A stretch of 36,452 bases of DNA, taken from Oscillospiraceae bacterium. Lineage in GTDB: Bacteria > Bacillota > Clostridia > Oscillospirales > Oscillospiraceae. Shown here one piece after another: positions 2,603 to 24,698 of the stretch. How positions within the stretch are numbered: position 1 is the stretch's first letter; every line of letters starts with the position of its first letter. Location of the stretch: positions 1 to 36,452 of the forward strand of contig JAZSQG010000215.1 of assembly GCA_045537855.1 (NCBI GenBank), given 5' to 3'. Made by a program: the position numbers and the translations under genes. Below the pieces are notes generated by a model, which searched no databases, was not told the origin of the DNA, and saw nothing but the letters and a program-made list of their open reading frames with translations.

Positions 2603-3910
2603 TCAGTTGCCGGGAACCGTATCCATATCCGGTTCCCGCTCGGGAGCAGGAGTCTCGGTTTCTGCTTCGGGTTCTTCACTGTTGTCATCCCCGGGCATTT
2701 CTTCGGGCGCGTCCTCTGGCATTTCTCCTGCCTCACCGCCGGGAGTCTCTTCCGGGGCGGGTGTCTCTTCGGGCGTGATCTCAACTTTTCCGGTAGGATG
2801 CTCGGGGTTTACTTCGTCAAAGGTGATGTAGAGCGTCAGGATCTCACCGTAGCGCCATACTGTGATGGGAGCGGTATCACCTGCATCGTAGGGGAGCTTG
2901 GCCTTTGTCAGGTCTGTAATGCTTCTGACCGGGGTATCGCCAAGCTGAATGATGATATCGCCTTTCTGCAGGCCGGCCTTTTCACCGCAGAGCCCGGGGC
3001 TGATGTCATAGACCATAGCGCCTGCGGGACTTCCGCCCTCAAACTGGTCCTGCGTTACATTGGTCACCGTGATGCCCATGAGAGGGCGGAAGCGTACATA
3101 GCCGTACTCTTTCAAATCTTCCGCGATTTTCAGGGCATCGTTGATGGGGAGGGCAAAGCCGAGACCTTCGGCGGTAACACCGCTGTATTTGGCTGTGGTA
3201 ATTCCGATGACTTCGCCTGCTGCATTATAGACTGGGCCGCCGGAACAGCCGCGGTTCACCGCTGCATCGATCTGAAACATGTTCAGTACTACGCCGTCTT
3301 CAAATTCGATTTCACGATCCGTGCCGCTGATGATGCCGCTGGTCATGGTGTAGGCCAGTTCTTCGGCAGGGTGTCCCATGATATACACGGACTGGCAGGC
3401 TTTCAGCTTATCGCTGTTTCCCAGCCGTGCAACAGAATGGCAGCGTGCATTGATCTTCAGAAGCGCCACATCACTCTGACTGTCGCAGCCGATGATCTCC
3501 GCATCATAGCTGCTGCCGTCCCGGAAGCTGACGGTGGGGGAGAGCTCCAGTTCATTTGCCTCGCTGACTACATGGGCGTTGGTGAGAATGTAACCGTCAT
3601 AGGAAACGACAAAGCCGGTGCCCATAACCCGCTGCAGAACGTTGCCATCCGTGTCGGTGCTGGTATAGGTGGTGATCATAACCGTCTGTTTTTCGGCTGT
3701 TTCATAAAGCTTCACCGGATCTGTTTCGGTGCTGCCGTAAAAATAGGCTACGTTTTCGGGTGCGGAAGTCCGGAATTCCATGGTGCCGTCCCGTACGATC
3801 TCTACATTGCCCAGAATGCCCTGCAGTGCCATATAGCCAGCACTGCTGAACAGCAGCAGAGACAGGCTCAGGACAGCGGCGATGAGGCTCCTGCAATTGC
3901 GTTCTTTCAT
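2603..3910 (-). CDS. htrA: HtrA/DegP-family trypsin-like serine protease with PDZ domain and acidic Pro/Glu-rich C-terminal tail
   Basis: Catalytic triad context: ILTNAHVV (His), DVALLKI (Asp), GCSGGPV (Ser). PDZ-like GLQKGDIIIQLGD. N-terminal membrane anchor LIAAVLSLSLLLF. Start set at MKERN (3910) because AAGGAGGAGGAAA lies directly upstream. The ORF-track start at 3979 has no RBS. Confidence 0.9.
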   Translation of the reverse strand: MKERNCRSLIAAVLSLSLLLFSSAGYMALQGILGNVEIVRDGTMEFRTSAPENVAYFYGSTETDPVKLYETAEKQTVMITTYTSTDTDGNVLQRVMGTGFVVSYDGYILTNAHVVSEANELELSPTVSFRDGSSYDAEIIGCDSQSDVALLKINARCHSVARLGNSDKLKACQSVYIMGHPAEELAYTMTSGIISGTDREIEFEDGVVLNMFQIDAAVNRGCSGGPVYNAAGEVIGITTAKYSGVTAEGLGFALPINDALKIAEDLKEYGYVRFRPLMGITVTNVTQDQFEGGSPAGAMVYDISPGLCGEKAGLQKGDIIIQLGDTPVRSITDLTKAKLPYDAGDTAPITVWRYGEILTLYITFDEVNPEHPTGKVEITPEETPAPEETPGGEAGEMPEDAPEEMPGDDNSEEPEAETETPAPEREPDMDTVPGN

Positions 3911-3962
3911 TTTCCTCCTCCTTATCTGAGGTGAAGCTGTGCCCTTTCGGGGCGGGGTCTTA

Positions 3963-3991
3963 CCGAAAACGGGGCGCACAGTGTGCGCCCC
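3963..3991 (-). terminator. Rho-independent terminator after the Mo-enzyme gene
   Basis: On the minus strand, GGGGCGCAC-ACT-GTGCGCCCC followed by GTTTTCGG, 14 nt after the stop at 4005. Confidence 0.75.
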
Positions 3992-4004
3992 GTATGTTCG
4001 TTAC

Positions 4005-6731
4005 TCAGTTCTGAATGAGCCAGCCGTCCAGGCAGACGCCGCAGCCTTCATCCAGGGGGCGTGCAAAGGCTTCGGGGTAGTCGCGCTTCCAGCTTTCCCA
4101 TTCCGCATCGCTGACTTTTTCCACCTGAGACAGGAAGCCGCTGACGGCCATGCCGGTAGCATTCCGGGAGGTGGGGGCAGCTGGTGTAATGGTGTTGATC
4201 GCACCGCCCCGGTCCAGCCATCCGGGAATGATGGGGTCCAGGCGGGAGCCGTGGTCCACATAGCAGACGCCGGGCATGAGCCGCTCGGTGACATAGGCGC
4301 CGCAGAGGATGATGCCCCGCTCATTAAACACCTTGACGATATCGCCGTGTTTGATGCCCCGGGCTTCGGCTTCGCTGGGATGGAGCCACACGGGCTCGTA
4401 AAGATAGCCGTCCTCGCCTCTGACCTTCATGGTCTCGATTTCACGGGTCCAGAGGATGTCATCGCACTGGGCGTGCATACGCCAGCGGCCGTGGTTGGAC
4501 ATACACAGCAGGGGATACTGCGCTGCCCGGGGAGAGGAACGCCGCTCGTCATGACTGGGTCCGCTTTCGATCCAGTGGGGAACGGGAGGGCGCTCCGGAT
4601 CGTCGGGGGTCCGCTCTGCGATCTGGGTGGAATAGTATTCCAGCTTGCCCGTGGGCGTGGAGAGGGGATTGTTCTCCGGGTCGCGGTAGAATTCCAGCAG
4701 ACCGGCGGGGATCTGGTCCAGCTCCTCCTGGGTCTTGCAGGGGATCACGAAGATTTTGCGCCGCCGGAATTCTTCCCAGGTCATATAGTCTTCGCAGCCG
4801 GTAGCCTTGTAGAGGAACCGTACACGCTCGTCATGGGTGAGCTTGCCGGTATAGGCGTCATAGTATTCCTGACCCAGCTTTTCGGCGACCTTAGCGCAGA
4901 CGTCAAAGTCGCTGAGGCTTTCGCCGATGGGTTCGCAGCAGGGCTCGGCCAGGTAGATGCTTGTGAAAGCACCGCTGGAAAAATCGTTGGCCAGGTCCGG
5001 CAGCTCATGCTTGGTGGCTACGGGGAAAATCAGATCGGCAAAATAACAGTCATTTTCCAGCCAGGGATGCTGCGCAATGATGGTCTCGATGCTCTCGTGG
5101 CGGTAGGCCCGGATGCTGAGATTGCCGTCATTCCAGCAGGTGACCTGACAGGGCGCGTCCGTCCAGATCATGTGGACGCGGCTCATGCCGTCCCGGGGAT
5201 ATTTCATTTCCTCAAACTGATACTGCTGGGTGGGGTGCCGGTAGTTGTTGGGCCCGGGCTGCTGACTGGAGGAGAAGCACTGCAGGCCCCGCCATTCTGC
5301 GTGACCGTTGATGATGGCTTCGTGGACATGGCAGCGTGGAATGAACTGTTTGGGGGCGGGAAGCTGCCGGTACAGGTCGATCAGCTCCGGCGCCCGTTCC
5401 TTCTGCTCTTTGGAGAGTACAAAGCGGTCCATATTCACGATGGGATCCACATCGCCCTCCACGGGCCGCAGGGGGTCGGCGCAGGCGGTGACCCGGGGTA
5501 CGAACTGCCCCTGATAGGGAACGGGGTAATCCCGGTTCCAGAGGTTCCATTCCAGCATCTTCGCCTGATGGACGCCGGGACGGCCCAGACCCTGCATGCC
5601 CAGGAGCATGACTTCCAGGCGGGCAGGCTCGGAGGAGTAGGGGCCGCGGATATAGGGGCCGCCGTTGCCGTGGAGGATGCTGGCGGTCTTTTTGGCCCAA
5701 TCCCGGGCGAGGGCCTTGATGGTCCACTCGGGCGTGCCGCACTTTTCGCTGGCCCAGGCGGGGGTCTTGGGGATGCCGTCCTCCCGGCCCAGAACATAAT
5801 CTTCGAATTTATCAAAGCCGTAAGCGTGGCTGTCGATATACTCCCGGTCGTAGCTGCCCTCGGTGAGCCAGACGTAGGCAATGGCCAGCTGCATGGCGGC
5901 GTCTGTGTTGGGCAGGATGGGGATCCACTTATCGGCATGGACTGCCGCGCCGTAGTTCAGGTCGGGGCAGACATACACGCTCTTGATGCCGATCTGGGAG
6001 AACCAGTAGCACATGCGGCTGGGCAGGTTCATGCCGAAGCCCCGGGGGGTCGTCTCAGGGTCACAGCCCCAGAAAAGCAGCAGGTCGGAGTGCTTTGCAA
6101 TGTCGGGATAGAGGTTTGCCTGAGGTGCCATTTCACCCACGGGCTCACAGCCCCAGACATACTTTGCACCCCAGAACCAGCCTTCCCAGGAGTCCATGTT
6201 CCGCATCTGCAGGGTATAGCCACCCAGCAGGCTGAGAAGCCGGTTGGGACAGCCGTGGCTGGGGGCGGTATTCTTGCCTTCGCCGTGCATGTCCGCCTGG
6301 CAGAGGACAGCCTCGCAACCGTAGGCATCCCGTATGCGCAGCAGTTCGTCCGCAGCGATCTGCGCAGCCTCATCCCAAGAAATGCGCACATAGCGGCTGA
6401 CGCCCCGGTTCTGGGGATTACGCTCGCCTTTGGGGTCCCAGTCCACCCGCTTCAGGGGATAGCGTACCCGGTTCCTGGAATAGACCCGGGTCCGGTAGCC
6501 GATGCCGAAGGGGGTGATGGTGACCCGGTCGGGAGCGGAAAAGCTGCTGCCTCGGGCTTCCATCTTCCAGGGGTTGCAGTTGGCATTGGTGTATTCCGTA
6601 TCATAAAAATACGGCCTGATCCGTGTGATTCGGCCGTCTGTCGTATCCACAAGACAGGGCCCGCCGCTTTCAGGACCCATCAGGCTGAAACTGACGATGC
6701 TCTGGCTGTCGGGTGTAAATTTTGTTTGCAT
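4005..6731 (-). CDS. Molybdopterin (bis-MGD, DMSO-reductase superfamily) oxidoreductase, pyrogallol-phloroglucinol transhydroxylase large-subunit (AthL)-like
   Basis: 908 aa. By-eye collinearity with Pelobacter AthL as I remember it: GGPCLV..DGRITRIRP; WKMEARGSSFSAP; RISWDEAAQIAADEL; DSWEGWFWGAKYVWG; YDREYIDSHAYGFDKFEDYVLG..DGIPKTPAWASEKCG; C-terminal RGIKHGDIVKVFNERG. No N-terminal Cys cluster and no twin-arginine signal. ATG at 6731 is preferred (GGAAGTAGGTGA RBS) over the TTG at 6749. Confidence 0.85.
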   Translation of the reverse strand: MQTKFTPDSQSIVSFSLMGPESGGPCLVDTTDGRITRIRPYFYDTEYTNANCNPWKMEARGSSFSAPDRVTITPFGIGYRTRVYSRNRVRYPLKRVDWDPKGERNPQNRGVSRYVRISWDEAAQIAADELLRIRDAYGCEAVLCQADMHGEGKNTAPSHGCPNRLLSLLGGYTLQMRNMDSWEGWFWGAKYVWGCEPVGEMAPQANLYPDIAKHSDLLLFWGCDPETTPRGFGMNLPSRMCYWFSQIGIKSVYVCPDLNYGAAVHADKWIPILPNTDAAMQLAIAYVWLTEGSYDREYIDSHAYGFDKFEDYVLGREDGIPKTPAWASEKCGTPEWTIKALARDWAKKTASILHGNGGPYIRGPYSSEPARLEVMLLGMQGLGRPGVHQAKMLEWNLWNRDYPVPYQGQFVPRVTACADPLRPVEGDVDPIVNMDRFVLSKEQKERAPELIDLYRQLPAPKQFIPRCHVHEAIINGHAEWRGLQCFSSSQQPGPNNYRHPTQQYQFEEMKYPRDGMSRVHMIWTDAPCQVTCWNDGNLSIRAYRHESIETIIAQHPWLENDCYFADLIFPVATKHELPDLANDFSSGAFTSIYLAEPCCEPIGESLSDFDVCAKVAEKLGQEYYDAYTGKLTHDERVRFLYKATGCEDYMTWEEFRRRKIFVIPCKTQEELDQIPAGLLEFYRDPENNPLSTPTGKLEYYSTQIAERTPDDPERPPVPHWIESGPSHDERRSSPRAAQYPLLCMSNHGRWRMHAQCDDILWTREIETMKVRGEDGYLYEPVWLHPSEAEARGIKHGDIVKVFNERGIILCGAYVTERLMPGVCYVDHGSRLDPIIPGWLDRGGAINTITPAAPTSRNATGMAVSGFLSQVEKVSDAEWESWKRDYPEAFARPLDEGCGVCLDGWLIQN

Positions 6732-6751
6732 TTCATCACCTACTTCCAATC

Positions 6752-6780
6752 ATTATACATGATAATGTGCAACAGGTCAA
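6752..6780 (-). promoter_or_regulatory. Sigma-A-type promoter for the Mo-enzyme gene
   Basis: On the minus strand, TTGACC - 17 nt - TATAAT, about 20 nt upstream of the ATG (very short leader). Confidence 0.6.
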
Positions 6781-6834
6781 TCACCGCAGAAAAGGAAAAA
6801 CAGGAAATCGTCGAAGGGGGAGGCTTTGACTCTC

Positions 6835-6862
6835 TTGCAATTTTTCACTCCTTTGATATAAT
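6835..6862 (+). promoter_or_regulatory. Sigma-A-type promoter for the SDR-aldolase operon
   Basis: TTGCAA - 16 nt - TATAAT with an extended -10 (TGaTATAAT). GGAGA RBS 7 nt before the ATG at 6898. Confidence 0.55.
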
Positions 6863-6868
6863 ATCAAA
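6852..6868. promoter_or_regulatory. Perfect 17-bp palindrome (candidate operator) overlapping the -10 of the SDR promoter
   Basis: TTTGATAT-A-ATATCAAA: 8-bp arms, fully complementary, centred on the TATAAT box. Confidence 0.5.
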
Positions 6869-6897
6869 AAACTCATATTGAAACTGGAGATAAGATC

Positions 6898-7737
6898 ATG
6901 GAAGCTATGCTGAAAGGAAAAGTCGCCTGGGTGACCGGTGCATCCAGCGGTATGGGTGAGGCTACGGCCCTGACCTTCGGAAAGGAAGGTGCCATCGTCA
7001 TCGTGGGCGGTGGCCGCAAGGTGGAACGGGCGATGGAGACCTGCCGGCAGATCGAAGAAGCCGGCGGCGTTGCCCGGTACTACGGTCCTCTGGATGTCTC
7101 CGATCCTCAGAACATTCAGGACCACTATAATAAAATCATTGCCGAATTCGGTCGGGTGGATATTCTGGCCGCCTTTGCCGGCAAGAGCTTTGATAACGAC
7201 AATCTGCCCAAGGAAGAGCATTGGCAGCGCACCATGGATGTGAATATGCGCGGCATGTACGACTGCTGCATGGCGGTCTTCCCGGGCATGAAGGAGCAGC
7301 GCAGCGGCAGCATTATCGTGTGCTCCTCCAACGGTGCTTTCAACCCCACAACGCCTGCCTATGAATACCACATGGCCAAGGGTGCCTGTGAATCTCTGGC
7401 GGCCAATCTTGCCCTGGAGGGCGCGCCCTACGGCGTTCGCGTCAACTGTATCAAACCCGGCTGCATCCTCACCGGTTTCTGGGACGAGCTTATTGCCGAC
7501 AAGGAAGAGCAGCTGGCCTTCACCGCCCAGATCGCCAAGAAAGAGGTGCCCCTGCAGCGGGTGGGCACCGCCCAGGACATTGCCAATGTGTCCCTCTTCT
7601 TTGCTTCCGAACTTTCCTCTTATGTGACCGGTCTGCGCCTCTATGTGGGCGGTGGTCAGGGCTATATCTATTCTGCGGGTCAGTCCTTCCTGCTCAGTGA
7701 CGATGCGCAGGATACGCTGCCTGTGGGTGTCCGCTGA
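6898..7737 (+). CDS. Short-chain dehydrogenase/reductase (SDR) family oxidoreductase
   Basis: Rossmann motif VTGASSGMG. Catalytic YxxxK as YHMAKGA. NG-type SSNGAF. Classical SDR length of 279 aa. Confidence 0.9.
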   Translation: MEAMLKGKVAWVTGASSGMGEATALTFGKEGAIVIVGGGRKVERAMETCRQIEEAGGVARYYGPLDVSDPQNIQDHYNKIIAEFGRVDILAAFAGKSFDNDNLPKEEHWQRTMDVNMRGMYDCCMAVFPGMKEQRSGSIIVCSSNGAFNPTTPAYEYHMAKGACESLAANLALEGAPYGVRVNCIKPGCILTGFWDELIADKEEQLAFTAQIAKKEVPLQRVGTAQDIANVSLFFASELSSYVTGLRLYVGGGQGYIYSAGQSFLLSDDAQDTLPVGVR

Positions 7738-8555
7738 TGACGCCGGACTGCAGGGCCATCCGGTCCTTTGCACGCATGTGCAACGACGGCTGGCTGCAAG
7801 GCTGGCATGAGCGCAACGGCGGAAACCTGACCTATCGACTGACGGAGGAGGATGTGGCAGAGTGCCGCCCCTTCTTTAAGGAGCCCGGTCCCTGGACCGA
7901 TATGGGCGTTGCGGATGCGTATCTCGCCGGTGCTTATTTTCTCTCCACCGGCAGCGGGAAATACATGCGCAACATCCAGGAAGCCCCGGATGAGAATCTC
8001 TGTATTCTGGAGATCAACGAAGCGGGCAGCGCCTGGCGCATCGTCTGGGGCCTTGTGGGAGGCGGGAAGCCCACCAGTGAGTTTTCCAGCCACTACCTGT
8101 GCCACTGTGTCCGCGCCAGGGCTACAAATGGCGAGACCAGGGTCATGTATCATGCCCACCCGGCTCATATCGTAGCCCTGACCTTTGTGCTGCCCCTCAC
8201 CAGCCGTGCCTTCACCCGCGCCCTGTGGCAGAGTGAAACGGAGTGCCCCATCGTATTCCCCAACGGCGTCGGTGTGGTGGAATTCATGGTGCCCGGCGGA
8301 AGCGAGATCGCAAGAGCCACGGAGAAAATGATGGCCCGGCATGACGCTGTGGTGTGGGCGCATCATGGGCTCTTCACCTCCGGGCCGGACTTTGATACGG
8401 CTTTCGGACTGATGCATACCATTGAGAAGGCAGCGCAGATCCGCATTCTCGCCCTGTCTGCAGGGCAGGGACAGCTGCGGCAGGCGATTTCCGATCAGGA
8501 GATCCTCGCGGTAGCAAAAACATATGACAAGGAACTGGATGTCAGTCTGCTGTGA
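7737..8555 (+). CDS. rhaD: Class II aldolase, rhamnulose-1-phosphate aldolase (RhaD)-like
   Basis: Collinear with E. coli RhaD from memory: WLQGWHERNGGNLTYRL, STGSGKYMRN, PTSEFSSHYLCH (catalytic Glu), VMYHAHPAHIVALT and WAHHGLFTSG (three Zn-binding His). The start overlaps the SDR stop (TGATG), indicating translational coupling. Confidence 0.85.
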   Translation: MTPDCRAIRSFARMCNDGWLQGWHERNGGNLTYRLTEEDVAECRPFFKEPGPWTDMGVADAYLAGAYFLSTGSGKYMRNIQEAPDENLCILEINEAGSAWRIVWGLVGGGKPTSEFSSHYLCHCVRARATNGETRVMYHAHPAHIVALTFVLPLTSRAFTRALWQSETECPIVFPNGVGVVEFMVPGGSEIARATEKMMARHDAVVWAHHGLFTSGPDFDTAFGLMHTIEKAAQIRILALSAGQGQLRQAISDQEILAVAKTYDKELDVSLL

Positions 8556-8593
8556 CAGGTACGGTCCCGGACATATGGAACAGGAGGAAGAAC

Positions 8594-9343
8594 ATGTCAG
8601 CGGAACGGAAATTTCGCAGTGCGATCAACGGCTTCAACCGTCAGGATGTAGCCACCTATATTGAAGCGGCCTCTGCCCGAGCCGCCGCCACCAAGGCGGA
8701 GAAGGAAAAACTACAGACCCGCTGTACCCGGCTGGAAGCTGCTCTGGATGCATCGGAGCGCAGCGCGTCGGAAGCCGCTGCCCGCTGTGAGGAACTGGAA
8801 GCGCAGCTGGCGGCCCTGCAGGATGATTTTGACAGTACCCGTCGGGAACTGGAGGATGTGCGCAGCGAGAAGGAACTGCTGGCTTCTGTTTCCGTCAGCG
8901 GGGAAGAGCTTCTGTCCATGCGAAAAGCTCTGGAGGAAGCCCGGGAGAAGCTCGCCCGGAAGGAAGAGGAGCTTGCAGACTGCCTTGCCAAGGCGGTGGA
9001 GTATGATGCGGTGAAGGATCGGGTCGCGTCTCTGGAGCTGTCTGCCAGCCGCCGGGCCGTGGAAATTGAGCGCTCCGCGGAAGAACATGCGGCGCAGGTG
9101 CTGCAGAATGCCCGCCAGGCGGACGCTGCGGCCCAGCAGGCCCGGGAGGCGGCGGCGCTGCATTTCCGCAGCCAGCTGGGGAAGCTGAGCCGGGACAGCC
9201 GCTTCAGTGCATCTCTTCTGACCAAGGAGCTGAGCCAGCTGACGGAGAGCCTGGGCCGACTTGCTGCGGAACTGGATACCGCGGCAGGGGAACTGGATAC
9301 TCCGCAGCCCGGCATTTCCGCGCCGGAAACGGAAGAAAACTGA
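8594..9343 (+). CDS. DivIVA-domain-like coiled-coil protein
   Basis: N-terminal FRSAINGFNRQDVATYIE resembles the DivIVA N-domain (F..GY..EV..FL). The rest is Ala/Glu/Arg/Leu-rich heptad-like coiled coil. Start set at MSAERK, with AGGAGGAAG 5 nt upstream. Confidence 0.55.
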   Translation: MSAERKFRSAINGFNRQDVATYIEAASARAAATKAEKEKLQTRCTRLEAALDASERSASEAAARCEELEAQLAALQDDFDSTRRELEDVRSEKELLASVSVSGEELLSMRKALEEAREKLARKEEELADCLAKAVEYDAVKDRVASLELSASRRAVEIERSAEEHAAQVLQNARQADAAAQQAREAAALHFRSQLGKLSRDSRFSASLLTKELSQLTESLGRLAAELDTAAGELDTPQPGISAPETEEN

Positions 9344-22351: not shown

Positions 22352-22397
22352 GTTTATCGGAACAAGCGTTATTTTGCGGGAAGGGGCAGGTGAGACC

Positions 22398-24698
22398 ATG
22401 TCGGAGCGTGACCGCGAACAACTGAATCAGGCGGATGCTGCGGCAGAGGTGATCACCCTGGAATCCATCCTCTCCGAGTACAAGGCGGAGGCGTTTGTGA
22501 AAAACGAGCGCCGCCTTTCCAAGGAGGAGCTGGAAGCCAGGACCGAGGCCATCATCCGGGAAATGAAGGAGAGCCTGGAAGCGGAGGAGCGGGCTGCGAA
22601 TGCGCAGCAGTCTGCGCCGGAGTCGGAGGAAACCGCATCGGAGCAGGAGGAGAGTCCTGTCCTGCTGCCGCCCGAGGAGGGACGGGAGGAAGCGCCTGCC
22701 GCCGAAGCTGCTGCGGAAACCGCCGCGCCGCAGGCCGAAACGGTCCCTGCGGAAGCGGAAGACACCGAAGCTGCCGGGGAAGCGGAAGCGCCCGCCACGG
22801 TGGAAGAAGCGCAGGCTGAGGAAGCGTCCGAAGAAGCCGAAAGCGAAGCTGTGGCGGAAGAAGCCGGAGTGGAAGCGGAAGAACCCTTCCTGAATCCCAT
22901 TCTGGAGACTGCGCCTCAGGGAGTGGATGCACACACTGTATCGGGCAAAAGCTCCCGCCGCATGCGCAGGCGGGAGGCAAGGCGCCTCCGGGCCCGGCAG
23001 AAAGCGGCAGAAAAGGCCGCAGGAGCCGAGGCTGAAGCACAGGCTGCACCGGAACCGGCCCCGGAGCTCACAGCCCCGGAGGCGGCAAGGCTCTATTCTT
23101 CCGGCATTGCATCCCTTCGCCGGAGAACGCTGCTGGCCTTTGCCTTCAGCATTCTCATGGCACTCATTGTACTCATCGGAGAAAAGGGCGGCGCGCTGCC
23201 CGGTTTTCTCCGCAATCCCAACGGCCGCTGCGCCGCGCTGGTCATCGGGCAGCTGGCGGTGATGCTGCTGGGGGCTGATATTCTCATGAAGGGCGTGCTG
23301 GGTCTGTTTTCGGGACAGGCCGGTGCGGATACCCTGGCGGCTGTGGCCAATCTCTGCTGCCTGGTGGACGGGCTCCTCATTTTCCTGGGGAAGCGCCCGG
23401 CCCGGGGCGGTCCCTATGCCTGCGTCGCGGCAATGGTGCTGGCCTTCAACATGCTGGGCGAGCGTATGGGACGCAGTGCCTTCCGGGATATCCTGCGTAC
23501 CATGAAGGGCGCCAGGATCCCCACGGTGGTCACCGCCGAGGAGGACCTTGCCGACGAAGGGCTGGTGCTTTGTAAGCGGCTGGGCAGCGCCCGGGGTTTC
23601 CTTTCCAAGTGTATCGAGCCTGACCTTGCCAGCCGCCGCTATCATATACTTGCCCCGGCGCTTCTGGTGCTGGCTGCCGTACTTGCCCTGTTTGCTGTGA
23701 TGCTCAGCGGAGAAAAGGTGTTTTTCCACACCCTGGCGGCCCTCACCGTGGCGGCGGCGTCCATGACCTCCGCGCTGGTTTACAGGCGACCCTTCATGTT
23801 CATCGCCCGGCGCCTTGCCGCATCCGGCGCGGTTCTTGCCGGATGGTCCGGTGCCGAGGATGTGTACCGCTCCGTGGGTATGGTGGTGCGGGATCTGGAC
23901 CTGTTTCCGGAGCATACCATCCAGCTCAACGGGATGAAGGTGCTTTCCGGCGCGCCTGTGGAAAAAGTCATTTCCTATGCGGGCAGCATGATCCAGGCCT
24001 CCAATTCCGGCCTGAAGCGCAGCTTCGGGGAATTGATGCGCCAGTACGCCGTGCCCACCTACCATACCGAGGAATTCAACTGCTCCACCGAGGGCGGCAT
24101 CAGTGCCTTCATCGGGCAGGATCTTGTGATGCTGGGTTCCGCTGCCTATATGAATCTCATGGGCATCCGCGTCCCCGGTACGGGGGATGTGGCCGGTGCG
24201 GTGTATATTGCCGTCAACCGGGAGCTCAGCGGCATTTTCATTGTCAATTATACCCCGGTGGATATGGTGCAAAACGCCCTGATCAATCTGCTGCGCTCCA
24301 AAGTCCGGCCGATTTTCGCAGTGCGTGACTTTAACGTGAATCCGGCTATGCTGAAAACGAAGTTCAAGCTGGGCAGCCGGGAGATCCGCTTCCTGCCCAT
24401 GGAGGACCGCTATCAGCTCAGCGTGGACAGCGAAAGCGAGGCGGTGCCCACTGCCCTGATGACCCGGGAGGGTCTGGGCCATTATGTGGAGATCGCCCGG
24501 AGCGGCAGACGGCTGGTGCGTGCGGTGCGCAGAGGGCTGCGCTTCACGGTTCTGGGCAGCCTTGTGGGCATGCTTCTGATTTTCCTTGCCTGCGCCAGGG
24601 GCGCGTTCATGGCCGCAAGCGCCGGGAATTTGCTGCTCTTCATGCTCCTCTGGGCACTGGCTGTGATCCTCATCGCCGATGGGGCGGAGGGTGACTGA
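22398..24698 (+). CDS. Degenerate P-type (P1B-like) ATPase homolog with long acidic N-terminal region; predicted non-catalytic membrane protein
   Basis: 766 aa. The first ~230 aa are Glu/Ala-rich low complexity followed by a basic patch (RRMRRREARRLRARQK). About 8 hydrophobic helices in the P1B arrangement. GADTLAAVANL resembles the MDTLIALG helix. Expected catalytic motifs are replaced (RDLDLFPEHT for DKTGTLT, AAASMTS for CPC, VRDFNVNPAML for the TGDN/GDGxNDxP type). ATG at 22398 (AGGTGA RBS) is preferred over the TTG at 22374. Confidence 0.6.
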   Translation: MSERDREQLNQADAAAEVITLESILSEYKAEAFVKNERRLSKEELEARTEAIIREMKESLEAEERAANAQQSAPESEETASEQEESPVLLPPEEGREEAPAAEAAAETAAPQAETVPAEAEDTEAAGEAEAPATVEEAQAEEASEEAESEAVAEEAGVEAEEPFLNPILETAPQGVDAHTVSGKSSRRMRRREARRLRARQKAAEKAAGAEAEAQAAPEPAPELTAPEAARLYSSGIASLRRRTLLAFAFSILMALIVLIGEKGGALPGFLRNPNGRCAALVIGQLAVMLLGADILMKGVLGLFSGQAGADTLAAVANLCCLVDGLLIFLGKRPARGGPYACVAAMVLAFNMLGERMGRSAFRDILRTMKGARIPTVVTAEEDLADEGLVLCKRLGSARGFLSKCIEPDLASRRYHILAPALLVLAAVLALFAVMLSGEKVFFHTLAALTVAAASMTSALVYRRPFMFIARRLAASGAVLAGWSGAEDVYRSVGMVVRDLDLFPEHTIQLNGMKVLSGAPVEKVISYAGSMIQASNSGLKRSFGELMRQYAVPTYHTEEFNCSTEGGISAFIGQDLVMLGSAAYMNLMGIRVPGTGDVAGAVYIAVNRELSGIFIVNYTPVDMVQNALINLLRSKVRPIFAVRDFNVNPAMLKTKFKLGSREIRFLPMEDRYQLSVDSESEAVPTALMTREGLGHYVEIARSGRRLVRAVRRGLRFTVLGSLVGMLLIFLACARGAFMAASAGNLLLFMLLWALAVILIADGAEGD

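What the first reader, a model, noticed from the sequence alone, without database searches (positions are those of the whole stretch)
4005..6731. Stand-alone AthL-like molybdopterin enzyme with no Fe-S subunit, Tat signal or Fe-S motif
- The 908-aa protein is collinear by eye with the large subunit of Pelobacter pyrogallol-phloroglucinol transhydroxylase (DSWEGWFWGAKYVWG; YDREYIDSHAYGFDKFEDYVLG..DGIPKTPAWASEKCG).
- The characterised enzyme is a heterodimer with a 3x[4Fe-4S] beta subunit (BthL).
- Here the gene is monocistronic: its own TTGACC-17-TATAAT promoter and a hairpin terminator 14 nt after the stop.
- No ferredoxin-like partner, chaperone or Moco gene lies within 36 kb.
- The N-terminus has no Cys cluster and no RR motif, so the protein is probably cytoplasmic and redox-neutral or uses a soluble partner.
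- Around the position where I recall AthL using a Ser as Mo ligand (PSSHHMWG), this protein reads CQADMHGEGKN. The ligand may differ, but that alignment is uncertain.
- The substrate is unknown. Candidates are polyphenol or sugar-derived hydroxyl-transfer or dehydroxylation chemistry of the kind known from gut bacteria.
Basis: partly seen in the sequence, partly recalled or inferred. Interest (0 to 1): 0.65.

Follow-up and report, generated by a model that had tools for sequence, protein, structure and literature searches.

The report
Orphan transhydroxylase-like molybdenum enzyme gene
This gene from a ruminant-gut Oscillospiraceae bacterium encodes the molybdenum subunit of an uncharacterised sister group of the pyrogallol-phloroglucinol transhydroxylase; the neighbouring iron-sulfur partner gene found in most related species is missing here, yet the gene is still under strong selection.

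Summary
Window 4005-6731 (-) encodes a 908-aa protein. Its best solved relative over the full length is the Pelobacter acidigallici transhydroxylase large subunit AthL (E 1.8e-131; fold TM 0.79-0.82). It has its own promoter-like and terminator-like sites. No Fe-S, Moco or phloroglucinol-pathway gene lies in the 36 kb.

Three points of the interpretation need correcting:
- **Mo ligand.** The Mo-ligand Ser is conserved (NMDSWEGW, Ser181).
- **N-terminus.** An N-terminus without Tat signal or Fe-S motif is normal for AthL.
- **Stand-alone state.** This is a derived, lineage-specific state. In 57 of 81 loci a BthL-like 3x[4Fe-4S] gene follows about 18 bp downstream. The window and ten ruminant-gut relatives form a nested clade that lacks it, leaving no remnant. 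Selection is unchanged (dN/dS 0.078 against 0.068).

The protein is not the canonical transhydroxylase. A second paralogue in relatives ('alpha2', 43-51% identical to AthL) keeps AthL's pocket residues, including Tyr404. It sits in the phloroglucinol-pathway operon. The window's type ('alpha*', 35-39% identical) reads G/G/P/S/G/(I or C)/F at those positions.

It is most likely a cytoplasmic Mo-bisPGD enzyme acting on polyhydroxy-aromatics. Whether it works alone or borrows a beta subunit is unresolved. I rate it a new variant of a known kind, of moderate interest.

The parts
4005..6731 (-). CDS of the 908-aa AthL-family molybdopterin protein, subfamily 'alpha*' as named here
   Evidence: AlphaFold model has pLDDT 81 and pTM 0.85; the best fold match is 4v4c_A with TM 0.79/0.82.
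6752..6780 (-). Sigma-70-type promoter-like site, TTGACC-17-TATAAT
   Evidence: (11 of 12 matches) and the sequence. It lies upstream of the ATG at 6731 and leaves out the TTG at 6749.
6736..6747 (-). Purine-rich Shine-Dalgarno-like stretch, GGAAGTAGGTGA
   Evidence: Read directly.
3966..3993 (-). Intrinsic-terminator-like hairpin ACGGGGCGCACA-C-TGTGCGCCCCGT followed by TTT(T)
   Evidence: It starts 11 nt after the stop codon at 4007-4005.
6177..6200 (-). NMDSWEGW motif: Asp180, Ser181 (predicted Mo ligand, equal to AthL Ser175) and Trp182
   Evidence: Invariant in all 110 aligned family members.
6258..6287 (-). His149 (equal to AthL His144) followed by GEGKNTAPS, where AthL has HMWGNVGYR. This is one wall of the altered pocket.
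5481..5483 (-). Cys417 at the position of AthL Tyr404. The position is Ile in most alpha* proteins and Tyr in alpha2.
   Evidence: The alignment has gaps nearby, so the exact column is less certain than the others.
4008..4100 (-). C-terminal extension of about 30 aa that AthL lacks (W..DYPEAFAR..D..GVCLDGWL). It carries a CGVC motif at 4032-4043 in this clade.

Best explanation
**Identity (shown).** The gene encodes the catalytic subunit of a cytoplasmic Mo-bis(pyranopterin guanine dinucleotide) enzyme. It belongs to the AthL (pyrogallol-phloroglucinol transhydroxylase) branch of the DMSO-reductase superfamily. Within that branch it falls in an uncharacterised sister subfamily that I call alpha*. 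This subfamily is abundant in gut and rumen Oscillospiraceae.

**Active site (shown).** The Mo-binding and acid-base core is kept: Ser181 as ligand, Asp180, His149 and Trp182. Seven AthL pocket positions are changed:

| AthL residue | alpha* residue |
|---|---|
| His145 | Gly |
| Trp147 | Gly |
| Tyr152 | Pro |
| Arg153 | Ser |
| Trp354 | Gly |
| Tyr404 | Ile or Cys |
| Tyr560 | Phe |

**Context in relatives (shown).** In related species alpha* is followed by its own BthL-like 3x[4Fe-4S] gene. It often lies beside molybdate-uptake (ModABC) and MobA genes, a second AthL-like pair (alpha2-beta2) and the phloroglucinol-degradation genes. In the window's lineage only alpha* remains. It has its own promoter and terminator and sits among unrelated genes. 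It is still under the same purifying selection.

**Function (inferred).** The enzyme binds a hydroxylated aromatic at Mo and transfers or removes a hydroxyl group. The substrate is larger than pyrogallol or differs from it. In this lineage the enzyme works without a dedicated, co-encoded Fe-S subunit. That means either a redox-neutral hydroxyl transfer or the use of a generic electron donor.

**Unresolved.** I cannot tell whether it is fully autonomous (my estimate about 45%) or docks to a beta subunit encoded elsewhere (about 40%).
For: **Family and fold**
- Pfam AhtL-like_1st, Molybdopterin and Molydop_binding domains.
- 4v4c_A matched at E 1.8e-131 over the full length.
- Foldseek ranks 4v4c_A first (TM 0.79/0.82), followed by the monomeric MtsZ, DorA and TorA.

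**Core and pocket residues**
- Shown column by column.
- All seven AthL residue numbers that I recalled land on the expected residue type in the 4v4c sequence.

**Partner gene in relatives**
- The BthL-like gene is present in 57 of 81 loci, with a median gap of 18 bp on the same strand.
- Its domains are and its match to 4v4c_B.

**Gene context in relatives** (31 loci with at least 5 kb on both sides)

| Neighbour | Loci out of 31 |
|---|---|
| beta subunit | 24 |
| at least one of thiolase, BKACE, cyclase, HADH | 14 |
| alpha2 | 11 |
| Mod or MobA | 12 |

The pathway enzyme families are those of Zhou et al. 2023 (PMC10470551).

**Loss of the partner**
- The beta-less clade is monophyletic and nested.
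- No beta remnant is found in the window or in any beta-less locus.
- The junction is confirmed in four metagenomes.

**Still functional**
- dN/dS has a median of 0.078 (range 0.027-0.147) in the beta-less clade, against 0.068 in 389 beta-containing pairs.
- A 169-nt metatranscriptome contig is 100% identical to part of the gene (weak evidence).

**For autonomy**
- At least four independent lineages carry an isolated alpha* among housekeeping genes.
- None of the ten beta-less genomes contributes a second alpha* locus among the 80 best hits, which reach down to 73% identity.
- The beta2 of the paralogous pair is only 38-41% identical to the alpha*-type beta.
- Hydrophobic-to-charged changes recur in beta-less lineages: L731R, P86R/K and L230R.
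Against: - No activity data exist for any alpha* protein, and I found no paper on this subfamily.
- Only 36 kb of the genome is visible. A beta gene, Moco synthesis genes and the phloroglucinol pathway elsewhere in the genome cannot be checked.
- Loss of the partner has left no detectable mark on the protein:
  - dN/dS is unchanged.
  - Clade-specific changes at 582 conserved columns number 6 (rumen clade) and 14 (termite clade), against 1, 22 and 3 in control clades.
  - There is no rate acceleration beyond that of the beta-containing sister groups.
  - All of this fits continued binding of a beta subunit at least as well as autonomy.
- The family shows beta sharing. Operons of the form alpha*-alpha3-beta occur in L060 and L067. 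The betas of alpha* and alpha3 pairs are 96% identical. One MAG holds both an alpha*-beta pair (L055) and an alpha* with no beta in the 805 bp that follow it (L071).
- The roles I give to His144, Asp174 and Tyr404 come from my memory of Messerschmidt et al. 2004 (PNAS). That paper was not available.
- The 'larger pocket' is inferred from sequence only.
Confidence: 0.45

Rival explanations
1. The protein is still the alpha subunit of an alpha-beta heterodimer. The BthL-type Fe-S subunit is encoded elsewhere in the genome, for example with a paralogous alpha3-beta pair, and is shared. Only the gene adjacency was lost.
For: - Selective constraint is unchanged, with no excess of clade-specific replacements and no rate acceleration.
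- Relatives have operons of the form alpha*-alpha3-beta, in which one beta follows two alphas (L060, L067).
- The betas of alpha* and alpha3 pairs are 96% identical.
- MAG CAZJCH01 has both an alpha*-beta locus (L055) and an alpha* locus with no beta in the 805 bp that follow it (L071).
- Many of these genomes hold several alpha-beta pairs.
Against: - No beta gene occurs in the 36-kb window or in 10 kb on either side of the gene in the beta-less relatives with enough flank (L002-L010).
- The gene has its own strong promoter-like site and terminator, so it would not be co-regulated with a distant beta.
- No second alpha* locus from these genomes appears among the 80 best hits.
- The other known beta class, beta2, is only 38-41% identical.
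- The partner was lost independently in at least four lineages.
Confidence: 0.35
2. It is a genuine pyrogallol-phloroglucinol transhydroxylase (EC 1.97.1.2) that simply lacks its small subunit.
For: - Best sequence and fold match is AthL.
- The Ser, Asp and His core is conserved.
- Orthologues lie next to phloroglucinol-pathway genes. In L013 and L065 there is no alpha2 within reach.
Against: - The AthL pocket signature HHWYRDSWWYY reads HGGPSDSWGCF here. Tyr404 and six others are replaced.
- A different paralogue (alpha2) is 43-51% identical to AthL, against 35% for the window protein. It keeps HHWY(K)DSW(F/E)YY and sits inside the thiolase-SDR-cyclase-HADH-BKACE operon. That role therefore appears to be taken.
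- No phloroglucinol-pathway gene lies in the window.
Confidence: 0.07
3. It is a stand-alone cytoplasmic S- or N-oxide reductase of the BisC, DorA or TorA kind, repairing or reducing sulfoxides or N-oxides, with no role in phenol metabolism.
For: - The best NCBIfam hit is bisC_fam (322.6 bits).
- After AthL, the next fold matches are the monomeric MtsZ, DorA and TorA.
- It is stand-alone, cytoplasmic and Ser-ligated.
- From memory (Krumholz & Bryant 1988): the transhydroxylase of Eubacterium oxidoreducens uses DMSO as an oxidant in vitro.
Against: - Every NCBIfam score is far below its cut-off (322 against 1017).
- It has the AthL-specific N-terminal domain.
- The match to AthL is about 65 orders of magnitude better in E-value than the match to any S- or N-oxide reductase.
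- Orthologues carry a BthL-type partner and lie in phloroglucinol-pathway clusters.
Confidence: 0.08
4. It is a decaying remnant: an alpha gene left behind after the operon was lost, no longer functional.
For: The partner gene and the pathway context are gone.
Against: - The reading frame is intact over its full length in all 11 members of the clade.
- dN/dS is 0.03-0.15 over dS up to 1.8.
- All core residues are kept.
- Promoter, Shine-Dalgarno-like and terminator sites are intact.
Confidence: 0.02

Closest known systems
Pyrogallol-phloroglucinol transhydroxylase AthL/BthL of Pelobacter acidigallici (PDB 4V4C-4V4E; EC 1.97.1.2)
   Same: - Four-domain MopB fold with the AthL-specific N-terminal domain.
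- Collinear over 860 residues.
- Cytoplasmic, with no Tat signal and no Fe-S cluster in alpha.
- Ser ligand in DSWEGW, with Asp174, His144 and Trp176 kept.
- Orthologues in other species have a BthL-like beta subunit (three 4Fe-4S motifs plus a C-terminal beta-sandwich domain) and are linked to the phloroglucinol pathway.
   Different: - Only 35% identity.
- The pocket residues His145, Trp147, Tyr152, Arg153, Trp354, Tyr404 and Tyr560 are replaced by Gly, Gly, Pro, Ser, Gly, Cys and Phe.
- An extra C-terminal tail of about 30 aa carries a conserved Cys.
- No beta gene at this locus.
- A closer AthL orthologue ('alpha2') coexists in related genomes.
'alpha2-beta2' pairs of Oscillospiraceae (uncharacterised; found in L011, L014, L022, L053, L060 and others)
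   Same: Same family and the same organisms. They are often in the same gene cluster as orthologues of the window gene.
   Different: - 31-37% identical to the window protein.
- They keep the AthL pocket, including Tyr404.
- They are co-transcribed with thiolase, SDR, cyclase, HADH and BKACE genes.
- Their beta2 is only 38-41% identical to the alpha*-type beta.
Monomeric type III DMSO-reductase-family enzymes (DorA, TorA, BisC, MtsZ)
   Same: Ser-ligated Mo-bisPGD, no Fe-S cluster, a single catalytic polypeptide. They are the next-best fold matches (TM 0.68-0.72).
   Different: About 21-23% identity. They lack the AthL-type N-terminal domain. NCBIfam scores are far below the cut-offs. DorA, TorA and MtsZ are periplasmic Tat substrates (from general knowledge).
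Resorcinol hydroxylase RhLS of Azoarcus anaerobius
   Same: According to PMC10100899, it is the other characterised member of the RhL/PgtL clade. It is Ser-ligated, cytoplasmic and acts on a phenol. It is a redox enzyme, which would give the beta subunit a role.
   Different: Not compared here, because no sequence was at hand.
Catechol dehydroxylases of Eggerthellaceae (Dadh, Cldh, Hcdh)
   Same: Gut bacterial Mo enzymes that remove hydroxyl groups from polyphenols (PMC7028382).
   Different: They belong to a different branch of the superfamily. From general knowledge, they are nearer to acetylene hydratase and are Tat-exported with Fe-S partners. The window protein matches acetylene hydratase only at E 2.7e-10.

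Membership tests
DMSO-reductase (MopB) superfamily, Ser-ligated type III | Molybdopterin and Molydop_binding domains in the four-domain fold | tested here: met
   PF00384 at E 5.4e-16 and PF01568 at E 1.2e-16. Fold matches to 176 PDB chains at E <= 0.001.
DMSO-reductase (MopB) superfamily, Ser-ligated type III | Ser as the protein ligand to Mo; no N-terminal Cys cluster (FS0) | tested here: met
   Ser181 aligns with AthL Ser175 and is invariant in 110 sequences. Only C26 and C52 occur in the first 80 residues. Actual ligation to Mo cannot be tested here.
AthL (pyrogallol-phloroglucinol transhydroxylase large subunit, EC 1.97.1.2) | AthL-type N-terminal domain and full-length collinearity with AthL | tested here: met
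   PF21423 scores 35.6 bits against a cut-off of 27. 4v4c_A matches at E 1.8e-131 over residues 18-878, with TM 0.79/0.82.
AthL (pyrogallol-phloroglucinol transhydroxylase large subunit, EC 1.97.1.2) | Catalytic core His144, Asp174 and Ser175 (roles from my memory of Messerschmidt 2004) | tested here: met
   His149, Asp180 and Ser181 are conserved.
AthL (pyrogallol-phloroglucinol transhydroxylase large subunit, EC 1.97.1.2) | Tyr404 and the substrate and co-substrate pocket (His145, Trp147, Tyr152, Arg153, Trp354, Tyr560) | tested here: not met
   The window reads G, G, P, S, G, C, F at these positions. The alpha2 paralogues keep H, W, Y, K, F/E, Y, Y.
AthL (pyrogallol-phloroglucinol transhydroxylase large subunit, EC 1.97.1.2) | Heterodimer with the 3x[4Fe-4S] subunit BthL, encoded next to it | tested here: not met
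   No BthL-like gene or remnant in the 36 kb. It is present downstream in 57 of 81 related loci. Presence elsewhere in the genome cannot be tested.
AthL (pyrogallol-phloroglucinol transhydroxylase large subunit, EC 1.97.1.2) | Genomic or physiological link to the phloroglucinol pathway (PGR, DPGC cyclase, TfD, TAL/BKACE) | tested here: not met
   None of these genes is in the window. The adjacent SDR is FabG-like and is paired with rhamnulose-1-phosphate aldolase. The link does exist for orthologues in 14 of 31 full-flank loci.
AthL (pyrogallol-phloroglucinol transhydroxylase large subunit, EC 1.97.1.2) | Conversion of pyrogallol to phloroglucinol with tetrahydroxybenzene as co-substrate | not testable with these tools
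   Needs an enzyme assay.
S-/N-oxide reductases (BisC, TorA, DorA, DmsA) | Score above the NCBIfam family cut-off | tested here: not met
   bisC_fam scores 322.6 against 1017.55, torA 248.8 against 1465, and dmsA_ynfE 296.7 against 777.7.
Catechol dehydroxylases (Dadh-like) | Tat signal, an N-terminal Fe-S motif, and placement in the clade near acetylene hydratase | tested here: not met
   No RR motif and no Cys cluster. Acetylene hydratase matches only at E 2.7e-10. No direct phylogeny with Dadh sequences was made.

The most novel reading that the evidence does not exclude
A transhydroxylase-type molybdenum enzyme shed its three-cluster Fe-S subunit and works alone. This happened at least four times independently (a ruminant-gut clade, a termite-gut clade, L072 and L045). 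If so, the Fe-S subunit, whose role in this redox-neutral enzyme class has never been explained, is dispensable for catalysis. The alpha* subfamily would then carry out a hydroxyl-transfer or dehydroxylation reaction on plant polyphenols that has not yet been described. The CGVC motif newly formed at the C-terminus in this clade might even act as a small redox relay.
Probability: 0.35. Interest if true: 0.7.

Novelty: new variant of a known kind. Interest (0 to 1): 0.5.

Why it matters
**Pathway.** Anaerobic breakdown of tannins and other trihydroxybenzene-type polyphenols in rumen and gut runs through phloroglucinol. The step before phloroglucinol is known from a single enzyme, that of Pelobacter.

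**Finding in relatives.** Gut and rumen Oscillospiraceae carry two distinct classes of that enzyme side by side:
- One class (alpha2) looks like the canonical transhydroxylase.
- The other class (alpha*, the window's type) has a remodelled pocket and no known substrate. It is abundant in metagenomes: 120 of 120 listed protein clusters are at least 60% identical to it, and 211 genome contigs stretches encode a relative.

**Open question made testable.** The purpose of the Fe-S subunit of transhydroxylase is a long-standing puzzle. The orphan copies under strong selection give a natural test of it.

**Limits.** None of this is shown biochemically. The window gene is one ordinary-looking member of a large uncharacterised clade.

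Tried and rejected
- **Neighbouring SDR (6898-7737) as phloroglucinol reductase.** This would have tied the gene to the pathway. Rejected: the best PDB and NCBIfam matches are generic FabG or glucose-dehydrogenase types. It overlaps the start of a rhamnulose-1-phosphate aldolase gene, and the next genes are a DivIVA-like coiled-coil protein and a TM1586-type nitroreductase-like protein. This neighbourhood is shared only by relatives at 87% identity or more, so it reflects synteny by descent.
- **Beta pseudogene remnant.** Searched downstream of the gene in the window and in every beta-less locus; none found. The one apparent hit in the window (4066-4335) came from an over-extended ORF in L052 that overlaps the alpha gene.
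- **Extending the view beyond the window.** Exact-protein look-ups with three window proteins found nothing on record.
- **Expression evidence.** One metatranscriptome run gave one 169-nt contig. This is too little to map a transcript.
- **RNA elements.** No Rfam family (including the Moco riboswitch) and no tRNA in the window.
- **Literature.** No paper on this subfamily was found. The transhydroxylase structure paper (PMC511022) is not held.
- **Signature of a vacated interface.** Results were inconclusive. Overall rates are unchanged. A few hydrophobic-to-charged changes recur in beta-less lineages. They could not be mapped, because no coordinates were available.
- **Locating a beta gene in the source organism through metagenome runs.** Abandoned: the organism is at 3-10x depth and its contigs are shorter than 1.5 kb.

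Full report
**What is there**

Window 4005-6731 (minus strand) is a 908-aa ORF with the third-position GC bias of real genes in this 59% GC window (0.77). Pfam finds the AthL-specific N-terminal domain together with Molybdopterin and Molydop_binding.

Among solved structures the best match is the large subunit of Pelobacter acidigallici pyrogallol-phloroglucinol transhydroxylase. The match (4v4c_A, E 1.8e-131) covers residues 18-878 against 8-872. The next best are DMSO and TMAO reductases, at about E 1e-66.

An AlphaFold model (pLDDT 81, pTM 0.85) matches 4v4c_A best (TM 0.79/0.82). The monomeric MtsZ, DorA and TorA follow.

Every NCBIfam hit is far below its cut-off; bisC_fam, for example, scores 322.6 against 1017.55. 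The protein therefore belongs to no named family beyond 'AthL-like'.

- TTGACC-17-TATAAT lies at 6780-6752, followed by a purine-rich ribosome-binding stretch and the ATG at 6731.
- An 11-bp G+C-rich hairpin with a short T run starts 11 nt after the stop codon.
- The next gene, HtrA, has its own AGGAGG and an ATG at 3910.
- The rest of the window holds ABC permeases, HtrA, an SDR, rhamnulose-1-phosphate aldolase, a DivIVA-like protein, a nitroreductase-like protein and H+-pyrophosphatase. It also holds peptidases, S-layer proteins, EF-G, a two-component system and others.
- No Fe-S protein, MobA, Mod, or phloroglucinol-pathway gene is present. No riboswitch or tRNA is present either.
- Contigs from four independent ruminant-gut metagenomes span the junction of gene, terminator and HtrA.

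**The Mo ligand is not changed**

Counting along the 4v4c sequence, Ser175 lies in NPDSWEGW. The window has NMDSWEGW (Asp180, Ser181, Trp182).

All seven residue numbers I recalled from the structure paper fall on the matching residue type in the 4v4c sequence. They are H144, R153, D174, S175, W176, W354, Y404 and Y560... more exactly, those eight positions include the seven pocket-related ones plus the ligand. This supports the numbering. The roles of these residues remain from memory, because the paper is not held.

**Relatives: the partner gene exists in the family**

A scan of one genome per species found 211 stretches encoding a relative. The 80 best (73-90% identity) are almost all rumen, gut or termite-gut Oscillospiraceae MAGs. 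I clustered all ORFs within 8 kb of the gene across the 80 loci and the window.

- In 57 of 81 loci a gene of about 270 aa follows on the same strand, with a median gap of 18 bp.
- That gene has Fer4_11 and CarboxypepD_reg domains. Its best solved match is BthL, the transhydroxylase small subunit (4v4c_B, E 2e-52).
- Other recurrent neighbours are thiolase (25 loci), BKACE (11), cyclase (9), 3-hydroxyacyl-CoA dehydrogenase (8), SDR (14), LysR (17), ModABC, MobA (9) and MFS or MATE transporters.
- Cyclase, HADH, BKACE and SDR are the enzyme families of the phloroglucinol pathway described in Clostridium scatologenes (PMC10470551).

**Two paralogue classes**

Many loci hold a second AthL-like pair. 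The two classes compare with AthL as follows.

| Class | Identity to AthL | Residues at AthL positions 144, 145, 147, 152, 153, 174, 175, 176, 354, 404, 560 | Context |
|---|---|---|---|
| AthL | - | HHWYRDSWWYY | Pelobacter enzyme |
| alpha2 (21 sequences) | 43-51% | HHWY(K)DSW(F/E)YY | directly upstream of beta2-thiolase-SDR-cyclase-HADH(-BKACE) |
| alpha* (80 sequences, the window's type) | 35-39% | HGGPSDSWG(I/C)F | usually followed by its own beta |

- The window reads HGGPSDSWGCF.
- The canonical transhydroxylase role is therefore most plausibly filled by alpha2.
- alpha* keeps the Mo and acid-base core, but bulky pocket residues are replaced by small ones.
- alpha* also has a conserved C-terminal tail of about 30 aa that AthL lacks.
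- A third group, alpha3 (57-65% identical to the window), shares the alpha* signature. Its beta is 96% identical to the alpha* beta, whereas beta2 is only 38-41% identical.

**The stand-alone state is derived**

In a neighbour-joining tree the window and L001-L010 form one clade nested inside the beta-containing alpha* orthologues. Of these ten relatives, L002-L010 have enough downstream sequence to show that beta is absent; L001 has only 367 bp.

- In most members of this clade with enough sequence, HtrA follows the gene directly.
- The basal member, L010, still has a LysR gene upstream.
- Other beta-less alpha* genes occur in a termite-gut clade (L054, L056, L062, L074, L075), in L072 and in L045. 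There too they lie among unrelated housekeeping genes.
- No beta pseudogene remnant is found in any of them.

**The gene is not decaying**

- dN/dS within the beta-less clade has a median of 0.078 (range 0.027-0.147), with dS up to about 1.8.
- In 389 beta-containing pairs of similar divergence the median is 0.068.
- At 582 columns conserved among beta-containing alpha*, clade-specific changes number 6 (rumen clade) and 14 (termite clade). Three control clades give 1, 22 and 3.
- Distance to an outgroup is no greater than for the beta-containing sister groups.
- A few hydrophobic-to-charged replacements recur in independent beta-less lineages: L731R, P86R/K and L230R. A897C creates a CGVC motif. 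I could not map these changes on a structure.

**How it most likely works**

Shown:
- It is a cytoplasmic AthL-family Mo enzyme.
- The Ser, Asp and His core is intact and the pocket is altered.
- It is expressed from its own signals.
- It is under purifying selection.
- Its ancestral Fe-S partner gene is gone from the locus.

Inferred:
- It binds a hydroxy-aromatic at Mo and transfers or removes a hydroxyl group.
- The substrate is not plain pyrogallol. Candidates are another hydroxybenzene isomer, gallate, or a larger polyphenol carrying a pyrogallol-type ring.
- A further possibility for the beta-containing orthologues is formation of the tetrahydroxybenzene co-substrate that the canonical enzyme needs.

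Whether the window protein is autonomous (about 45%) or borrows a beta encoded elsewhere (about 35-40%) cannot be settled from 36 kb.
- For autonomy: repeated independent losses, isolated loci with their own signals, and no second alpha* locus from these genomes among the 80 best hits.
- For a borrowed beta: unchanged constraint, and the family's habit of sharing one beta between two alphas (alpha*-alpha3-beta in L060 and L067; L055 and L071 in one MAG).

**Comparison and novelty**

The protein works like AthL in fold and metal site. It fails three defining features of the characterised enzyme: the pocket with Tyr404, the adjacent BthL, and pathway linkage at this locus. It is not an S- or N-oxide reductase by family score. 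It is not of the catechol-dehydroxylase branch.

I found no paper on this subfamily. I rate it a new variant of a known kind.

The gene itself is one member of a large uncharacterised clade. Its interest lies in two points: the alpha*/alpha2 split next to the phloroglucinol pathway, and the natural beta-less copies.

Noticed in passing
L011, L012, L014, L022, L023, L028, L033, L035, L043, L044, L046, L048, L050, L051, L053, L060, L061, L067, L078 (within 8 kb of the match): Related Oscillospiraceae carry two or more AthL/BthL-like pairs in one cluster, together with thiolase, SDR, cyclase, HADH and BKACE (the phloroglucinol pathway) and ModABC/MobA. Sporobacter MAGs have up to four alpha genes in a row.
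   Followed up: partly
L014:13600-16330, L015, L019-L023, L028, L031, L033, L035, L043, L050 (between alpha*-beta and alpha2-beta2): A conserved four-gene cassette occurs in 13-19 loci: a 156-aa protein, a NUDIX protein, a 100-aa protein and a 173-aa protein. Three of the four have no Pfam match. Its role in this metabolism is unknown.
   Followed up: partly
window 4032-4043 (-), residues 897-900: In ten of the eleven members of the beta-less ruminant clade (the window and L001-L009, but not L010) Ala897 is replaced by Cys. With the invariant Cys900 this makes a CGVC (CxxC) motif in the C-terminal tail. The beta-containing L073 has it too. Its meaning is unknown.
   Followed up: partly
window 6898-8555 (+): A FabG-like SDR and a rhamnulose-1-phosphate aldolase (NF002963, 292.6 bits against a cut-off of 170) overlap by one base and are transcribed divergently from the Mo-enzyme gene. 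This points to deoxy-sugar catabolism rather than phenol metabolism.
   Followed up: yes
window 8552-9343 (+): A 263-aa coiled-coil protein with a DivIVA-like N-terminal motif (FRSAINGFNRQDV) and no Pfam hit. It is conserved next to the nitroreductase-like gene in the closest relatives.
   Followed up: no
window 22374-24698 (+): A 774-aa predicted membrane protein with a long acidic, Ala/Glu-rich N-terminal region and no Pfam match.
   Followed up: no
window 3939-6881 (+) and many others: Long 'shadow' ORFs lie on the strand opposite real genes (for example 980 aa opposite the Mo-enzyme gene). They are a side effect of the high G+C content. Third-position GC separates real frames from shadow frames cleanly.
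   Followed up: yes
L016, L022, L049, L051, L052: Records labelled Flexilinea, Bacteroidaceae, Barnesiella intestinihominis and Spirochaetia carry this Oscillospiraceae-type gene at 77-81% identity, together with its beta gene. This probably reflects binning or labelling errors rather than horizontal transfer.
   Followed up: no
window 6110-6278: A single 169-nt contig from a gut metatranscriptome (run X25) is 100% identical to part of the gene. This is the only, and weak, sign of transcription.
   Followed up: partly
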